A stretch of 63,437 nucleotides of DNA, counting the filler, from Licmophora abbreviata (lineage: Eukaryota): the NCBI GenBank assembly GCA_900291995.1. It is 14 parts of 14 records of this genome, joined end to end, with 100 filler letters (N's around TTAATTAATTAA, not from the genome) between each part and the next. Parts side by side here need not be neighbours in the genome. Positions count along the whole stretch, not along the records: positions 20,957 to 38,975 come from OLMU01001712.1; 13 more parts are not named here. The stretch is one strand, 5' to 3'. The notes below the pieces were generated by a model. It searched no databases. It saw only the letters and a list, made by a program, of their open reading frames with translations, and was not told the origin of the DNA. The position numbers were made by a program, and so were the translations under genes. Positions 21,266-27,278 of the stretch are shown here, in pieces. Positions within the stretch are counted from its first letter, which is position 1. The number at the start of each line of letters is the position of its first letter.

Positions 21266-21638
21266 CGTTATGATTCTACTGCTCTATGATTCATAAACGA
21301 GACTAAAGGCTCACTAGAAGCAGACTATCAACCACCGACGATGATTGATTCATCATGACATCCGAGATTATGTTGCGATGAGGTGTGAGTGATATGACGG
21401 GTGGCTATGATAATATTTAGGCGGACGGAGCAAGACGTGATCTAGTCGAGGGAGTCTATTTGAGTCGATTGAGTCGTTTTCTCCGAGTCGAATCAATCGA
21501 CTGACTCAATTCAGTCCCAGATTGAAGATCTCCGATTTCGAATCTTTCTGTCATCGATAGACACCTGCATCTTTCTTATTGCCATTGACCCTCGCCTGTA
21601 TTGCATTGCACTTCGTGTCAACACTCTCGCGGTTAACT

Positions 21639-22520
21639 ATGCCTCTCAACAAGCTCTCATTCATCCTTGCTCTCTTCGCGCTTGTCGTTTCGGACGGCGT
21701 CCACGCAGGCGTGACATCTAACAAGGCGTTCGCCCCAAAGAGCAAGCTCAACGTGGATACGAATACTCACGCATTGCTCAAGATCCGTGGAGGATCCGGA
21801 TCTCTAGACCCCATGATGGTTGCCAAAGCGGTCAATGGTCTTGGATTTGCACAGGGAATGGTGTCAGCGCTAGCTCCAGAGAAGTCCCTTGAAGGGTATG
21901 GATTGCCCGACTCACCGATCCTCCGTTGGATGTTTCGCTTCTTGGGCGTGGGTGCCGTATCACAGGCAGTAACTTTCTACTGCCTCCTGGTCAAACAAAT
22001 GTCCTTACCTGACGCATTCGCCTTGGGTCTCATCCCAGGGATCGTTGAGAACCTTCGCAACGTTCTCACTGGCGATCACGTCAAGGTTGGATTCTCGAGG
22101 GAGGGCCAGCTCATGGCACTCCTACTAAACAGTGCGGTTGCTTTGGGGTCTACACAAGACTGGGGCCCCACTGCTATGAAGGCCCTCTCCACGCTCTGGG
22201 CGACCAACGGCATCATAATGATCTTGAGGCCTCAGACCGCGTGCAAATTGTGGGGCCAGGAGAGTGACGTGGGTGAGGCAATGGCCATTTGCGTCAAGAG
22301 CTTTGGCTTCTATTTGCTTGCAAGCTACGGGTCCATGCTTTTGATGCTCTTCAAGGACACAGCTCCTCTTACTGCATACGGCTATGCAATGGTGATTTAT
22401 TTGATTGATTGTGTGTCAAGTTTGGCGATGGGCGAGTCCGACAAGCTTGGTACTCCAAAGGGGCCTATGATCCTTTGGTCGTTCCTTGGTGCCGTAGCTG
22501 CGGGGACCATCTTGCTCTAG
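21639..22520 (+). CDS. Hypothetical multi-pass membrane protein with signal peptide and internal two-fold repeat
   Basis: Signal peptide MPLNKLSFILALFALVVSDGVHA, an LKIRGG motif, and about 8 TM segments arranged in two similar halves. Confidence 0.7.
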   Translation: MPLNKLSFILALFALVVSDGVHAGVTSNKAFAPKSKLNVDTNTHALLKIRGGSGSLDPMMVAKAVNGLGFAQGMVSALAPEKSLEGYGLPDSPILRWMFRFLGVGAVSQAVTFYCLLVKQMSLPDAFALGLIPGIVENLRNVLTGDHVKVGFSREGQLMALLLNSAVALGSTQDWGPTAMKALSTLWATNGIIMILRPQTACKLWGQESDVGEAMAICVKSFGFYLLASYGSMLLMLFKDTAPLTAYGYAMVIYLIDCVSSLAMGESDKLGTPKGPMILWSFLGAVAAGTILL

Positions 22521-22698: not shown

Positions 22699-25258
22699 TC
22701 ACGGTTTGATTTCGTACGGTGCTGTCCCTTCCTCGGAGCCCTCGTCGACTGTCTCCTCCAAATCCCCACTGCCGTCATCAAAGATATTGTCCAGACACAT
22801 AGAGAGTCGAGACGATACTGGCGACCACGGATCAATACGGAGACTATTTCGGAACGAGTCCAACGCCAATTGATAGCGCCTTGTTTCGTACTGAATGAGG
22901 CCCAGTCCGTTCATCGCTTGAAAATGGAGAGGCTCCAGGACCAAAGTACGCTCTGTTGCTTCCATGGCCGACTGCATGTTACCCAGCATGAACTGACACG
23001 TCGAAACTTTATTCCAAGCCTCTGCATAGGTTGGATCATCGCCAACCAACTGATTAAATGTAATCAATGCCTTCTCTTTGTTTCCGTGCAGCAATTGTGC
23101 AATCCCAGTATCTAGTTTTTGACGCAGGTCTGGATTTGGATGAACCTTCCAGAGCTCCTTTATGGTCTCCTCGAACACAACTGCGGCGTCCATGGAGTCC
23201 GAAAGTTTGAGTAGCTCCATCAGATTGCCCATGGACAGTTTCTCTACAATGGATGCTAGTGCCCGTTCTTCTTCCAATGATGGATCCTGAATCGCCAGCT
23301 GCAACCGAGTGATTTCGGACCTTATCCAGGAGAAACAAGAAAGCGTGGCGCCATCGTCTTCTATGTGTTCCGCATATTTGAACTGCGATTGATGGAAGAG
23401 AAAAGTGGTGTAAGGCCAAAGACAAAAGTCCTCCTGCAAGAAGATCGGTGTACCACGCGCTCGCACCTTGAGATCGTCCGGTGGGGTATACCTTGCTTCG
23501 GCACTGTTGTATACCCATTCGGGATCCAGATCGACGTTCAAAATCGTTCTTTTCCGAGGACACTGCTCAAGATTGGCTTCGCAGACGTAGCGAAAGGGTC
23601 GCGCAGCACCAAACGCTTCCACACAATCGTTGGAATCTGGGATGACGTGATAGAACGGAAGTTCCGACGCATTCTCAATGTCAACAAGCCCATCCCAGTG
23701 AGACACATCGACCGTAGGCGTGGGATCCCAGGCGACTACCACGCCTCGAAATCCGTATTTGGTGTGCTGTACAATCTCACCCAAGCTGAATCTTATCCGA
23801 TCCCGATTCTCCTCGGCAATCCGTCGCGACCACAATATTTCAGATAGCTCTAATGAAACATTGAGCAAAGCTCGAAGATGCAGTACCGCTAGATCGAAGG
23901 AGGAACGCTCCTCTGACGACAAGAGGTCTCGTTGTGTTAGTACATCACCCTTGGCGAGAGCATCAAGGCGGCTATGAATCTTGACAAGGAGAGGATACCC
24001 ACGCGATTCTTCGTAGATACAACGAGTAAGCCCAGCAGCAAAAGCCTGTATCCCCTCGATGACACCCTGGCCTAATTCATTCCGCCGCAGAGAGACCGTA
24101 TCGCTAGGATCCACTTCTTCCAGGGCCACAGTGTCAATCGGATATTCATACCCTCGAGATTTGTTGGGAATGAAGCACTTCTGCACAGGATCGAAGCGAT
24201 CGAAGTGTTGCTGGATCCAGTTACTGCGTATTCTTAGTAGCCTGCAAAGCAAAGATAGATACGACATATGAAAGTTGGCTCACAGATATTGACATTGATA
24301 AACATCGTCGCACGCAGTCATACCCATCGTCCTTGACCAGCTCCAAGTCTGTCTGCATTGCTACCGGCATGCCCGATGAATTATGCTGTTGCCGCCTGCC
24401 GCCGAGCATGGTCGCATCCCCAGAATCCAACACGATTGTATACTGAATAAGATCTTGCTCCTCAGAATCTCCTTGATCCAGCGATTCCAGTGGATCGCCA
24501 GAGAGCTTCTCGTCCCGTTCGTAGCTCTTCATGGTCAAAGACGTCCTGTTCGATGACGGCTCGATACGTTGCCATCCAGCAACGACCCCTCGCCAACGTT
24601 CCGTCTTGTGTTGCACGACTTGACCGATGAGGAATGACACCCCCTCTCGATCCAAATGCTTCTCTCGCTGTACCTTCATATCCACCAGTGCCTGCGTCAG
24701 TTCATTCAACGATTTCAGAGCTTCAAACGCAATCGACGTCCGTTGTTGGAAAGTTGCCTTATCAATCTCTTTATCAAGCTGGTTCATTCGAAACACAGCA
24801 CGAAGCAGCTGTCCCACATGAGATGCACGATGGATGGGTACAAGCAACCTATGTGACTCCACTTGACTCCTGGGCGGTAGCATGGTCAGAATCCGTGCGA
24901 ATTCTGGATCTAGCGTGGTGGTGTCTTGTAGTGTTTCCTCTGCCTTCCTATCGCCGCCGGCACTCCTCGCGAGTTCCTTCAGCGACTCGGGCGATACTGC
25001 GTGCGGCGGTTGGAGTGTTACAGGTGGCACTACATTGGACAAGGGAATCTCGTCGTCCGCATCATGCGACCACCGTAGAAGCTGTCGATACAAGGTCCGT
25101 CCCAGGCGCTCTCCGCCGTGAGAAGAAGAAGAAGAAGAAAAGACACGTAGTGCCATTGTGATACCATTGCAATTTGAGTTTGCAAACTGGGTGATGGGTG
25201 TCCGCGAGGATAGACGTCTCAGGACGGTCACCCGAGAATTTAACATCCGACTGATCAT
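22699..25258 (-). CDS. Mitochondrial-type protein with LYR-like N-terminus, two YccV/HspQ (hemimethylated-DNA-binding-like) domains and C-terminal TPRs (introns 24242-24323 and 23383-23466)
   Basis: R/S-rich presequence. YccV motifs FLIGQVVQHKTERWRGVVAGW and FSLGEIVQHTKYGFRGVVVAWD..PFYHVI..RYVCEANL. TPRs PTYAEAWNK, EPLHFQAMNGLGLIQY, SLRIDPW. GT-AG introns keep the frame. Confidence 0.8.
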
Positions 25259-25598: not shown

Positions 25599-27278
25599 AT
25601 GACAGCAATGATGCTGCGTTCTCGCATTTGCCTGGGCCGAGCGGCCGCCGCGACTCTCGTAAGTTACTTGCTCTTCGTGTCTCCCCTCTTTGTAACGTCT
25701 TCTCCTGCGTATCGTACTCGTGGAAGAGGAGGAAGCAATAACAAGGAGGAAGTAGACAGCGAACAATCCCCCAAACATCAACAACAACAACATGATGGTA
25801 TGACTGCTGCTGACGTCGTTGTCGATTCCACGGATGTTCACATCCAGGTATCTCCGAACCATCCATCGCAGCGACAGAGCTCCGCTGTGGTCGACTCGTT
25901 CTTTCGAGCTCCATCCTCCGCTGAGGCTCATTCGAAAAGTTACGGCAAGACATTCACAGTCGGGCCGGCAACTTGACCGACTACTTGATTTCGACACGAC
26001 GGACCTTGCATCGTCATCCGGAACTCATGTATCAAGAACGTGAGACATCGGCGATTGTACAAGAGCGACTGAGGGAACTGGATGTTGTCTATTCCACAGG
26101 ATGGGCTGTCAATACGCACCCAGACGTGATTGCGGGGAAAGGAGGTTATGGTATCGTGGCAGACATTGGGACTGGAAGCGAGCCTTGTGTGTTGCTTCGC
26201 GCAGACATGGACGCTCTTCCCATTTTGGAGCGAACAGAAGGTATTGAAGATTTTAAATCGCAAAAGCCGGGGACCATGCACGCATGTGGCCATGATGCGC
26301 ACACTACGATGCTCCTGGGAGCAGCGGCAATGCTCAAGCAGGTGGAAGATAGTCTGCAAGGGACTGTACGCGTCATGTTCCAGCCGGCGGAAGAAGGTGG
26401 TGCTGGAGCCAAGCGCATGAGAGAGGAGGGCATCTTGGAGATGGCACCTAAACCTCAACACGCGTTTGGCATGCATGTTTGGCCGACGTGAGTTATTTCG
26501 ATTGTTTTCGTTTTGTTTTGGGTGTGTATTGATATAATGCTTACACACTTCGTTCTTTAGCATTCCTTCCGGTTCCGTTGCTTCTCGTCCAGGACCTTTG
26601 CTAGCGGCTTGCGAACGTTTTGAAATTCTAATTGCTGGCGTTGGCGGTCATGCTGCCATGCCGGAGTTGACAGTAGACCCCATCGTTGCAGCTTCCTCCA
26701 TTGTTATGAACTTGCAAACTTTGGTTTCTCGAACGCTCAGTCCCTTGGAGAGCGGTGTGTGCAGTATCACCAAAATGCAAGCTGGAGAAGCATTCAACAT
26801 TATTCCTGCTTCGGCGCTGCTACGTGGTACGATTCGTGCCCTGAGCACCGAAACCCTGCTGTCTTTGAGAGATCGCGTCCATCACGTGGTAACAACCACG
26901 GCGGCAGTCCACGGATGCAATGTTACCATAACATACAGCCCCGACTACTACCCACCTACAGTGAATGATCCTCTTTTATTTGAAGACTTTTCAAAGGATG
27001 TGGGTGCACTGGTGTCAGAAGAAGGCCGTGTGCGGGACATTGAACCGACCATGGGCGCTGAAGACTTTTCGTTCGTCGCAGAGAACGTGCCATCAACATT
27101 CTTTTTGCTGGGCCAGGGCAGCGGCGAAAATCCCCCCACTCACTATGGACTGCATCATCCTCATTTTGCCTTGGACGAAAGTGTCTTGACGAGAGGAGTG
27201 GAACTGCATGCGAATCTTGCCATACGAGCTTTGAAGAAGCTCGCTGACGAACAGGAAGCTGTCGTCGCTTCCTCGTGA
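25599..27278 (+). CDS. Peptidase M20D amidohydrolase (IAA-amino acid hydrolase ILR1/hippurate hydrolase-like); frameshift near 25925, intron 26488-26560
   Basis: RRTLHRHPELMYQE, LRADMDALP, MHACGHDAH, FQPAEEG, GGHAAMP, MGAEDF, GLHHPHF.LDE. N-terminal signal-like segment lies in a different frame upstream of the indel. Confidence 0.9.

What the first reader, a model, noticed from the sequence alone, without database searches (positions are those of the whole stretch)
22699..25258. Split LYR-like domain + two YccV/HspQ domains + TPR: candidate mitochondrial protease adaptor
Seen: R/S-rich presequence, then RTLYRQLLRW, a long insertion, then QLLRAVFRMN and SIAFEALKSL. These match the three helices of a LYR motif (LYRxxLR / R..F..N / a...L..l). 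Two YccV-like domains and three TPRs follow. Known: LYR proteins bind acylated mitochondrial ACP, and YccV/HspQ domains occur in AAA+ protease regulators (E. coli HspQ-Lon, plant ClpF, animal POLDIP2-ClpXP). Inference: a stramenopile adaptor that could link acyl-ACP status to ClpXP/Lon proteolysis. I do not recall this architecture being described.
Basis: partly seen in the sequence, partly recalled or inferred. Interest (0 to 1): 0.72.

Follow-up and report, generated by a model that had tools for sequence, protein, structure and literature searches.

The report
Diatom LYR-like, double-YccV, TPR protein
A diatom gene encodes a probably mitochondrial protein that joins an unusual, interrupted version of the small acyl-carrier-protein-binding "LYR" domain to two HspQ-type protease-regulator domains and a TPR array, a combination not found described in print and whose function is still untested.

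Summary
A minus-strand gene at 25258-22699 encodes the quoted motifs, two Pfam YccV-like domains and about three TPRs.

The LYR idea is partly supported.
- Y57, R58, Q59 and W63 are invariant in 41 of 41 family members, and the downstream position is aromatic in 41 of 41.
- AlphaFold2 builds a confident three-helix bundle from the split segments. Its best structural match among 48,161 PDB representatives is human LYRM4/ISD11 (Z 7.4, 2.2 A, 76 of 81 residues).
- A newly found diatom sister family has the same N-domain with a short loop, fused to a Lon N-terminal domain. For it, PDB profile hits and language-model neighbours point to LYR families.

Against: no Pfam LYR model matches, the profile E-values are marginal (0.4-2.7), a broader profile hits ribosomal eL18 equally well, and Z 7.4 is within the chance range for helical bundles.

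ACP binding, mitochondrial location and any protease-adaptor role remain untested. I found no paper describing the architecture. Verdict: a real, conserved, undescribed variant of known domain kinds, with a speculative function.

The parts
22699..25258 (-). Whole coding region: three exons, 797 codons plus stop
   Evidence: The ATG at 25258 is the first Met of the open frame. The stop codon is 22701-22699.
24324..25258 (-). Exon 1 (residues 1-311 plus two bases of Gly312)
   Evidence: The junction ...LVKDDG|LLRIRS matches the relatives' consensus without a gap.
24242..24323 (-). Intron 1, 82 nt, GT..AG
   Evidence: Reading through it reaches a stop. No RNA evidence.
23467..24241 (-). Exon 2 (residues 312-570)
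23383..23466 (-).
   Evidence: boundaries; the 28 codons are absent from 35 of 35 aligned relatives. No RNA evidence.
22699..23382 (-). Exon 3 (227 residues plus stop)
25127..25258 (-). Presequence-like N-terminal extension (residues 1-44): basic, Ser/Thr-rich, no acidic residues, disordered in the model
   Evidence: 0 D+E, 6 R+K and 15 S+T in the 49 residues counted. Across 39 family members the first 30 residues have a median of 0 acidic and 5 basic residues, and 0 of 39 have a hydrophobic core; pLDDT below 50 for residues 1-41.
25061..25126 (-). Helix 1 of the LYR-like bundle (residues 45-66). L56-Y57-R58 is encoded at 25093-25085.
   Evidence: helix 45-66, pLDDT above 90 from residue ~50. 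(Y57, R58, Q59, W63 invariant in 41 of 41).
24827..25060 (-). Insert between helices 1 and 2 (residues 67-144). It has conserved IPL....PPV.L.PP and LLP...T.PI blocks, two short strands and three short helices, and a variable middle.
   Evidence: most of it has no counterpart in the short-loop paralogs.
24779..24826 (-). Helix 2 (residues 145-160) with R153..F156-R157..N159, the 'downstream F' position
   Evidence: F in 23 and Y in 18 of 41, R157 in 35 of 41, N159 in 39 of 41.
24653..24760 (-). Helix 3 (residues 167-202), AFEALKSLNELT, running into YccV-1
   Evidence: It is homologous to the helix before YccV-2.
24139..24640 (-). YccV-like domain 1 (residues ~207-346). It spans intron 1 and holds a variable acidic loop at residues ~249-268.
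   Evidence: PF08755, 24.4 bits. (5ycq_A HspQ: Z 7.4, rmsd 2.2, 59 aligned, 25% identity). (strands).
23809..24108 (-). Middle helical bundle (residues ~357-456), no LYR signature
   Evidence: helices 45-76, 83-97, 114-144 of the exon-2 piece, pLDDT ~90 or more. (only generic helical matches). (bundle against bundle: probability 0.6%).
23467..23793 (-). YccV-like domain 2 (residues ~462-570; it may run a few residues into exon 3)
   Evidence: 48.3 bits. (5ycq_A Z 7.7, 73 of 77 aligned, 27% identity; 6zlx_A PDIP38 Z 7.0). (Foldseek: 5ycq E 1.2e-3, 6z9c POLDIP2 E 2.2e-2).
22819..23109 (-). TPR block, about three repeats (exon-3 residues ~92-188)
   Evidence: TPR_2, TPR_16 and TPR_1 above cut-off. 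(consensus TPR, OGT and PEX5 TPR chains).

Best explanation
This is a nuclear gene of a diatom for a 797-residue protein that probably sits in the mitochondrial matrix. After a presequence-like extension comes a divergent LYR-type three-helix bundle. Helix 1 carries L-Y-R, helix 2 carries R..F-R, and a conserved insert of ~80 residues lies between them. Helix 3 runs straight into an HspQ-type YccV beta-barrel. A second helical bundle, a second YccV barrel and about three TPRs follow. Shown here: the gene model, the domains, their conservation and the predicted fold. Inferred: the LYR-like bundle docks mitochondrial (acyl-)ACP as canonical LYR proteins do. The YccV barrels and the TPRs would hold a client protein or an AAA+ protease (ClpX or Lon). 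The protein would then act as a scaffold or adaptor that ties a matrix proteolysis or stability decision to the state of mitochondrial fatty-acid synthesis.
For: Gene model and domains. Conservation: Y57, R58, Q59 and W63 are invariant in 41 of 41, position 156 is F or Y in 41 of 41, and the core helices are basic (median pI 10.0, median net charge +6, n=41). Fold: the AF2 model of exon 1 has pLDDT above 90 over residues ~50-100 and 120-230, with helices 45-66, 145-160 and 167-202. Of 48,161 PDB representatives, the joint top match is 6nzu_B (Z 7.4, rmsd 2.2, 76 of 81 residues, model range 49-198). One search names that chain 'LYR motif-containing protein 4'. Internal control: the protein's second helical bundle lists no LYR entry. 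Sister family: about 20 diatom proteins carry the same N-domain with a short loop, followed by a Lon N-terminal domain (PF02190; P0195 scores 35.8 bits against a cut-off of 28.7). The two N-domains are homologous (hhalign 99.1%, E 5.8e-19, 87 columns). Their invariant columns are Y, R, L, R, F, R. The short-loop profile hits 8 distinct PDB sequences at E<=10, and all 8 are LYRM4 or the MIEF1 upstream-ORF LYR protein (E 0.6-2.7). All listed language-model neighbours of the short-loop domain are LYR families (scores 0.80-0.85). YccV domains act in regulated proteolysis: the PDIP38 YccV-like domain docks on ClpX, HspQ activates Lon, and ClpF works with ClpS1/ClpC (passages read in PMC7647994 and PMC7966870). 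N-terminal composition fits a mitochondrial presequence and not a signal peptide.
Against: No Pfam LYR model (clan CL0491) matches the window protein at E<=1. None is among the 25 most-matched families in the 41 members at E<=10. None matches five short-loop or Florenciella proteins at E<=10. The profile of the window's own N-domain finds no LYR chain in PDB at E<=10. The LYR hits of the short-loop profile are individually non-significant. With a combined profile only 8 of 29 hits are LYR proteins, and eL18 variants score as well (E 0.23-0.45). Z 7.4 lies in the range the tool reports for chance helical-bundle matches, and a de novo three-helix bundle scores 6.5. Language-model scores below 0.9 are leads only, and the window's own domain gave no usable hit. 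The LYR-to-F distance is ~100 residues, against ~40 in the paralogs. ACP binding was not tested (see Tried and rejected). No localisation data were found. The protease link is by analogy only.
Confidence: 0.4

Rival explanations
1. The N-terminal bundle is only a generic helical stalk of the YccV module, like the second bundle, and the L-Y-R and F residues serve packing. The protein is a YccV/TPR interaction scaffold with no connection to ACP.
For: There are no Pfam LYR hits. E-values are marginal and eL18 scores equally. Z 7.4 is within the chance range for helical bundles. Helix 3 plus the start of YccV is a repeated unit, so part of the bundle belongs to the YccV module.
Against: The invariant residues are exactly the LYR-F signature in two families with different C-terminal domains. 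Helix 3 is kept in the Lon-N paralogs, which have no YccV. The second bundle does not retrieve LYRM4, while the first ranks it first. The short-loop profile and the language model both point only to LYR families.
Confidence: 0.28
2. It is a true LYR-type factor that works as canonical LYR proteins do, as an ACP-dependent assembly or stability factor for a mitochondrial complex. The YccV and TPR domains only recognise the client, and no protease is involved.
For: Known LYR proteins are subunits or assembly factors of OXPHOS, Fe-S and mitoribosome complexes (passages of PMC4381221 and PMC11293456). TPRs are general protein-binding modules.
Against: The characterised YccV proteins covered in the passages read (HspQ, PDIP38, ClpF) all act on AAA+ proteases. 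The sister family fuses the same N-domain to a Lon N-terminal domain.
Confidence: 0.15
3. It is a DNA-associated protein, as the database name 'hemimethylated DNA-binding protein' suggests, for example acting at the mitochondrial nucleoid.
For: Source names. POLDIP2 has reported mtDNA-related roles (titles and abstract starts only: PMC11914606, PMC7913696).
Against: The name is inherited from the Pfam family title, and no DNA-binding test exists for this family. Structural matches are to HspQ and PDIP38 as protease factors. Nothing in the LYR-like or TPR parts suggests DNA binding.
Confidence: 0.07

Closest known systems
LYRM4/ISD11 and the LYRM (Complex1_LYR-like) superfamily
   Same: It has an L-Y-R tripeptide at the start of the first helix of the mature protein, a downstream aromatic residue in an R..F-R helix, and a basic predicted three-helix bundle. 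The best structural match is LYRM4.
   Different: No Pfam LYR model matches it. An insert of ~80 residues lies between helices 1 and 2. It is one domain of a 797-residue protein, whereas LYRMs are described as ~15 kDa polypeptides (PMC4381221). ACP binding was not tested.
HspQ/YccV of enterobacteria (PDB 5ycq), specificity-enhancing factor of Lon
   Same: Both beta-domains are Pfam YccV-like, and HspQ is their best structural match (Z 7.4 and 7.7, 25-27% identity).
   Different: HspQ is a single small domain. Here there are two copies, each preceded by a helical bundle, inside a eukaryotic multidomain protein.
PDIP38/POLDIP2 (PDB 6zlx, 6z9c), ClpX-associated factor of human mitochondria
   Same: It is a mitochondrial matrix protein with a YccV-like barrel that docks on ClpX (PMC7647994). 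YccV-2 matches it structurally (Z 7.0; Foldseek E 2.2e-2).
   Different: PDIP38 pairs YccV with a DUF525/ApaG domain. No such domain is found here. PDIP38 has no LYR-like or TPR part.
ClpF of plant chloroplasts
   Same: It is a YccV-containing adaptor candidate with an N-terminal helical region ahead of YccV (PMC7966870).
   Different: ClpF has a UVR motif, is described as unique to higher plants and is plastid-located. No UVR match was found here, and the N-terminus lacks the signal peptide that, as I recall, diatom plastid import needs.
Diatom 'Lon N-terminal domain-containing' proteins with an LYR-like N-domain (P0195, P0197, P0188, P0194 and relatives; uncharacterised)
   Same: The N-domain is homologous (hhalign 99.1%, E 5.8e-19) and has the same invariant Y-R...R..F-R.
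   Different: They have a short loop in place of the long insert, a Lon N-terminal domain in place of YccV x2 plus TPR, and mostly no presequence-like extension.

Membership tests
[quoted passage not shown] | Conserved L-Y-R tripeptide close to the N-terminus (PMC4381221, passage) | tested here: met
   L56 is L in 38 and V in 3 of 41; Y57 and R58 are in 41 of 41. The motif sits at the start of the first helix after the presequence-like extension.
[quoted passage not shown] | Downstream conserved phenylalanine and basic residues ('LYR-F'; PMC11293456 and PMC4381221) | tested here: met
   Position 156 is F in 23 and Y in 18 of 41; R157 is in 35 of 41. R..F-R is invariant in 13 of 13 short-loop paralogs. 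Caveat: the spacing is ~100 residues here because of the insert.
[quoted passage not shown] | Three-helix bundle fold like solved LYR proteins | tested here: met
   The AF2 model gives the bundle. LYRM4 chain 6nzu_B is the joint top match of 48,161 chains (Z 7.4, rmsd 2.2, 76 of 81 residues). This is a prediction, and the Z is within the chance range for helical bundles.
[quoted passage not shown] | Significant match to a Pfam LYR model (PF05347, PF13232, PF13233, PF23655) | tested here: not met
   No hit at E<=1. None is among the top 25 families for 41 members at E<=10. No hit for 5 short-loop or Florenciella proteins at E<=10. PDB LYR chains are reached only at E 0.4-2.7.
[quoted passage not shown] | Small (~15 kDa), basic polypeptide | tested here: not met
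   The protein has 797 residues and several domains. The core helices alone are basic (median pI 10.0, n=41). Domain fusions of LYRMs are known (about 7% of the collected proteins; PMC11293456).
[quoted passage not shown] | Binds acylated mitochondrial ACP through a hydrophobic tunnel | not testable with these tools
   The co-fold job was not run by the tool.
YccV-like / HspQ (PF08755) | Pfam match above the gathering score | tested here: met
   24.4 bits (half-domain, cut by intron 1) and 48.3 bits, against a cut-off of 22.8. All 41 of 41 members match.
YccV-like / HspQ (PF08755) | SH3-like beta-barrel resembling HspQ and PDIP38 | tested here: met
   5ycq_A scores Z 7.4 and 7.7; 6zlx_A scores Z 7.0. 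Foldseek gives 5ycq E 1.2e-3 and 6z9c E 2.2e-2.
ClpF | UVR (uvrB/C) motif ahead of YccV; plastid location; higher plants only (PMC7966870) | tested here: not met
   No UVR family at E<=1. No signal-peptide-like core in 0 of 39 N-termini. The organism is a diatom, judged from its relatives.
PDIP38/POLDIP2 | YccV-like domain followed by DUF525/ApaG domain (PMC7647994) | tested here: not met
   No DUF525/ApaG match at E<=1.
TPR | Pfam TPR matches above cut-off | tested here: met
   TPR_2 35.6 against 27, TPR_16 35.8 against 32.7, TPR_1 27.9 against 27.8. Consensus-TPR chains in PDB score down to E 1e-64.

The most novel reading that the evidence does not exclude
Ochrophyte algae may have turned the LYR/acyl-ACP handle into a portable input module and fused it to two different AAA+-protease-linked recognition domains: YccV x2 plus TPR in this protein, and a Lon N-terminal domain in the sister family. 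That would create acyl-ACP-gated proteolysis adaptors, which let the output of mitochondrial fatty-acid synthesis (an acetyl-CoA read-out) decide which matrix proteins ClpXP or Lon degrade.
Probability: 0.2. Interest if true: 0.8.

Novelty: new variant of a known kind. Interest (0 to 1): 0.6.

Why it matters
In the papers read here, LYR proteins are small adaptors through which acylated mitochondrial ACP reports metabolic state to respiratory-complex, Fe-S and mitoribosome assembly. YccV proteins (HspQ, PDIP38, ClpF) tune the substrate choice of AAA+ proteases. A conserved protein that physically joins the two would make a long-suspected link directly testable: metabolic control of mitochondrial proteolysis through acyl-ACP. 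The test would be in diatoms, which can be genetically manipulated. It would also show that Pfam-based LYRM censuses miss insert-bearing members. If the LYR-like bundle does not bind ACP, what remains is an uncharacterised YccV-TPR scaffold limited to ochrophyte algae, which is of modest interest.

Tried and rejected
- **RNA support for the introns:** one run was listed, holding 7% of the sampled words. Its only contig covers 23087-23306, so no RNA holder was listed and no joint was seen.
- **Own genome:** none is held, so the organism's own ACP, ClpX and Lon could not be fetched.
- **Co-fold of the N-domain with E. coli ACP as a stand-in:** the queue was full at first. No verdict, and I did not pursue it by another route.
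- **Pfam LYR models:** no hit.
- **phmmer of the N-domain against PDB:** only a TALE-repeat artefact and a designed TPR.
- **Profile A2 against PDB:** 7 unrelated weak hits and no LYR chain.
- **ESM Atlas with the window's N-domain:** no usable hit.
- **Search for short LYR-like proteins with the Florenciella N-region:** 34 candidates, none at E<=10. I therefore had no genuine LYRM alignment for a profile-profile test against the LYR family itself.
- **pdb_via second look:** filled by beta-domain matches and uninformative for the bundle.
- **Combined profile A5:** no gain, and eL18 appears.
- **Middle bundle as a degenerate LYR copy:** rejected for lack of evidence (hhalign probability 0.6%; no LYR row).
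- **Diatom mitochondrial proteome supplements** (PMC6683858, PMC12854811): none of the words hemimethylated, YccV, HspQ or LYR occurs. The tables may list identifiers only.
- **Supplements of PMC11293456:** Table S3, the list of LYRM fusions, could not be read, so a listing of this architecture there cannot be excluded.
- **Earlier findings of this scan:** none.
Full report
**Gene and observation.** The finding's coordinates are exactly the coding limits of a minus-strand gene, with ATG at 25258 and the stop codon at 22701-22699. Exon 1 (25258-24324) gives the quoted strings: RTLYRQLLRW at residues 54-63, QLLRAVFRMN at 150-159 and SIAFEALKSL at 175-184. Intron 1 is 24323-24242 (82 nt, GT..AG). 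Aligning the conceptually spliced protein with 35 full-length relatives showed 28 window codons with no counterpart in any of the 35. These codons are bounded by GT..AG at 23466-23383. I could not confirm either intron with RNA. No genome is held for the window.

**Domains.**
- Pfam finds YccV-like (PF08755) twice: 24.4 bits for the half-domain in exon 1 and 48.3 bits in exon 2, against a cut-off of 22.8.
- It finds TPR_2, TPR_16 and TPR_1 above their cut-offs, and no LYR family at E<=1.
- The TPR block is about three repeats and resembles consensus TPRs, OGT and PEX5.

**Family.**
- The exon-2 ORF finds 81 relatives, at best 55% identical. Sources name Cylindrotheca, Nitzschia, Mayamaea and Odontella, and call the proteins only 'hemimethylated DNA binding protein' or 'HspQ'.
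- Of the 81, 35 are longer than 650 residues and carry [LV]YRQ[LI][LIV] near the N-terminus.
- In an alignment of the window's exon 1 with 40 relatives, Y57, R58, Q59, W63, P72 and P79 are invariant. L56 is L in 38 and V in 3. Position 156 is F in 23 and Y in 18. R157 is present in 35 of 41 and N159 in 39 of 41.
- The three core helices are basic, with median pI 10.0 and median net charge +6.
- A profile of the N-domain alone finds only 133 of 1.84 billion representatives at E<=0.001.
- One of these belongs to Florenciella parvula, a dictyochophyte. It has the LYR-like domain plus two YccV stretches and no TPR at E<=0.01. The family is therefore wider than diatoms.

**Is the N-domain LYR-like? 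Evidence for.**
1. The conserved residues are the published LYR-F signature: an L-Y-R tripeptide near the N-terminus with downstream basic residues and a conserved phenylalanine (passages in PMC4381221 and PMC11293456).
2. AlphaFold2 with the 41-sequence alignment gives pLDDT above 90 for residues ~50-100 and 120-230. It places helices at 45-66, 145-160 and 167-202, with the insert as a small separate sub-structure.
3. VIA-align against 48,161 PDB representatives ranks 6nzu_B joint first (Z 7.4, rmsd 2.2 A, 76 of 81 residues, 18% identity, model range 49-198). One search names that chain 'LYR motif-containing protein 4'.
4. As an internal control, the confident model of residues 313-570 (pLDDT 89.6) has a second three-helix bundle. 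That bundle retrieves only generic helical proteins and no LYR entry.
5. The weakest hits of the N-domain profile revealed a sister family. About 20 diatom proteins of ~400-500 residues start with LYR helix, short loop, R..FR helix and A..L..LN.L helix. They continue with a Lon N-terminal substrate-binding domain: P0195 scores 35.8 bits against a cut-off of 28.7, while two others score about 21 bits, below the cut-off.
6. Their N-domain is homologous to the window's (hhalign 99.1%, E 5.8e-19, 87 columns). Its invariant columns are Y, R, L, R, F, R.
7. A profile of this short-loop domain hits 8 distinct PDB sequences at E<=10. All 8 are LYR proteins: LYRM4 four times and the MIEF1 upstream-ORF protein four times. 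Helix 1 and helix 2 align in the right order.
8. All listed language-model neighbours of the short-loop domain are Complex1_LYR or LYRM_2 clusters.

**Evidence against.**
- Pfam's LYR models never match.
- The window family's own profile finds no LYR chain in PDB.
- The E-values are 0.6-2.7.
- A combined profile does no better. It brings in ribosomal eL18 variants at E 0.23-0.45, so only 8 of 29 hits are LYR proteins.
- The tool warns that helical bundles often reach Z up to ~13 by chance, and a de novo three-helix bundle scores 6.5.
- Language-model scores of 0.80-0.85 are leads only, and the window's own domain gave nothing.
- I weigh this as roughly 70% for true LYR-superfamily kinship. It is not established.

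**Rest of the anatomy.**
- Both beta-domains match HspQ best (Z 7.4 and 7.7, 25-27% identity). YccV-2 also matches PDIP38/POLDIP2 (Z 7.0; Foldseek E 2.2e-2).
- The stretch 'last helix plus start of YccV' is an internal repeat (BLASTP E 9e-6; hhalign 97.5%, E 7e-12 over 56 columns). The bundles alone are not detectably related (probability 0.6%).
- The N-terminal extensions of 39 family members have a median length of 47 residues. Their first 30 residues hold a median of 0 acidic and 5 basic residues, and none has a hydrophobic core.
- That fits a mitochondrial presequence. It argues against the signal-peptide-led plastid route, which I cite from memory. By contrast, the non-LYR Lon-N paralogs begin with hydrophobic, signal-peptide-like segments.

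**Mechanism.**
- Shown: the architecture, its conservation and the predicted folds.
- Inferred from the LYR literature: the bundle docks (acyl-)ACP.
- Inferred from PDIP38, HspQ and ClpF (passages in PMC7647994 and PMC7966870): the YccV barrels contact an AAA+ protease or its adaptor, and the TPRs hold a client.
- The same N-domain is fused in one family to YccV and in another to a Lon N-terminal domain. This is the one new observation that makes the protease reading more than analogy, but it is still only a domain-fusion argument.
- ACP binding could not be examined (see Tried and rejected).

**Comparison and novelty.**
- The protein is not ClpF (no UVR motif, not plant, no plastid-type leader).
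- It is not PDIP38 (no DUF525 domain).
- It fails the Pfam test and the size criterion of LYRMs, while meeting the motif and fold criteria.
- Searches for YccV with LYR found 2 papers, both irrelevant. LYRM terms with diatom terms found nothing relevant. In the search combining LYR terms with Lon N-terminal, YccV-like or protease adaptor, none of the 12 listed papers of 168 holds any of the latter three terms.
- The 2015 LYR review discusses LYRM fusions. Its text never mentions YccV, TPR, protease or Lon.
- The 2024 survey reports extra domains in about 7% of LYRMs, but its Table S3 could not be read.
- I rate the finding a new variant of known kinds: real, conserved and undescribed, with a plausible but untested function.

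Noticed in passing
window 23383-23466 (minus strand): An in-frame 84-nt intron keeps the reading frame open. It would add 28 spurious residues (VRARG...HQSQ) inside or just after YccV-2 if read through. It is absent from 35 of 35 relatives.
   Followed up: yes
proteins P0195, P0197, P0188, P0194, P0223-P0240: This is a diatom sister family: an LYR-like N-domain with a short loop, fused to a Lon N-terminal substrate-binding domain, mostly without a presequence. I found no paper on it in the searches run.
   Followed up: partly
proteins P0241, P0250, P0272, P0307 and others (seen): Related diatom Lon-N-domain proteins lack the LYR-like domain. They begin instead with a hydrophobic signal-peptide-like segment followed by an ASAF-like motif, which suggests a plastid-targeted paralog.
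   Followed up: no
protein P0205 (Florenciella parvula, 612 aa): A dictyochophyte homolog has the LYR-like domain and two YccV stretches. It has no TPR match at E<=0.01 and no presequence-like extension, so the TPR block may be a later addition, or this model may be incomplete.
   Followed up: partly
protein P0146 (1242 aa): A family member carries an N-terminal glycosyl hydrolase 99 / WbsX-like region ahead of the LYR-like domain. It is probably a merged gene model rather than a real fusion.
   Followed up: no
window ~24455-24514 (residues ~249-268 of exon 1): A variable acidic loop lies inside YccV-1. It has low occupancy among relatives and pLDDT ~51-57. PDIP38 is also reported to carry a large insertion in its YccV-like domain (between strands beta2 and beta3; passage).
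   Followed up: no
window 25600-26491 (+ strand): The divergently oriented neighbour starts about 340 bp upstream of the gene's ATG. A downstream + strand ORF (25925-26491) has a Peptidase_M20 domain (99.3 bits). The first open frame of the neighbour begins with an Arg-rich N-terminus.
   Followed up: partly
window 21561-22520 (+ strand): A 319-codon open frame lies just downstream of the gene's 3' end. It has several hydrophobic stretches and no Pfam match at E<=0.001.
   Followed up: partly
window 25111-25147: A (GAA)n-type run on the + strand encodes the Ser run of the presequence. The read-laying tool skipped it as a repeat.
   Followed up: no
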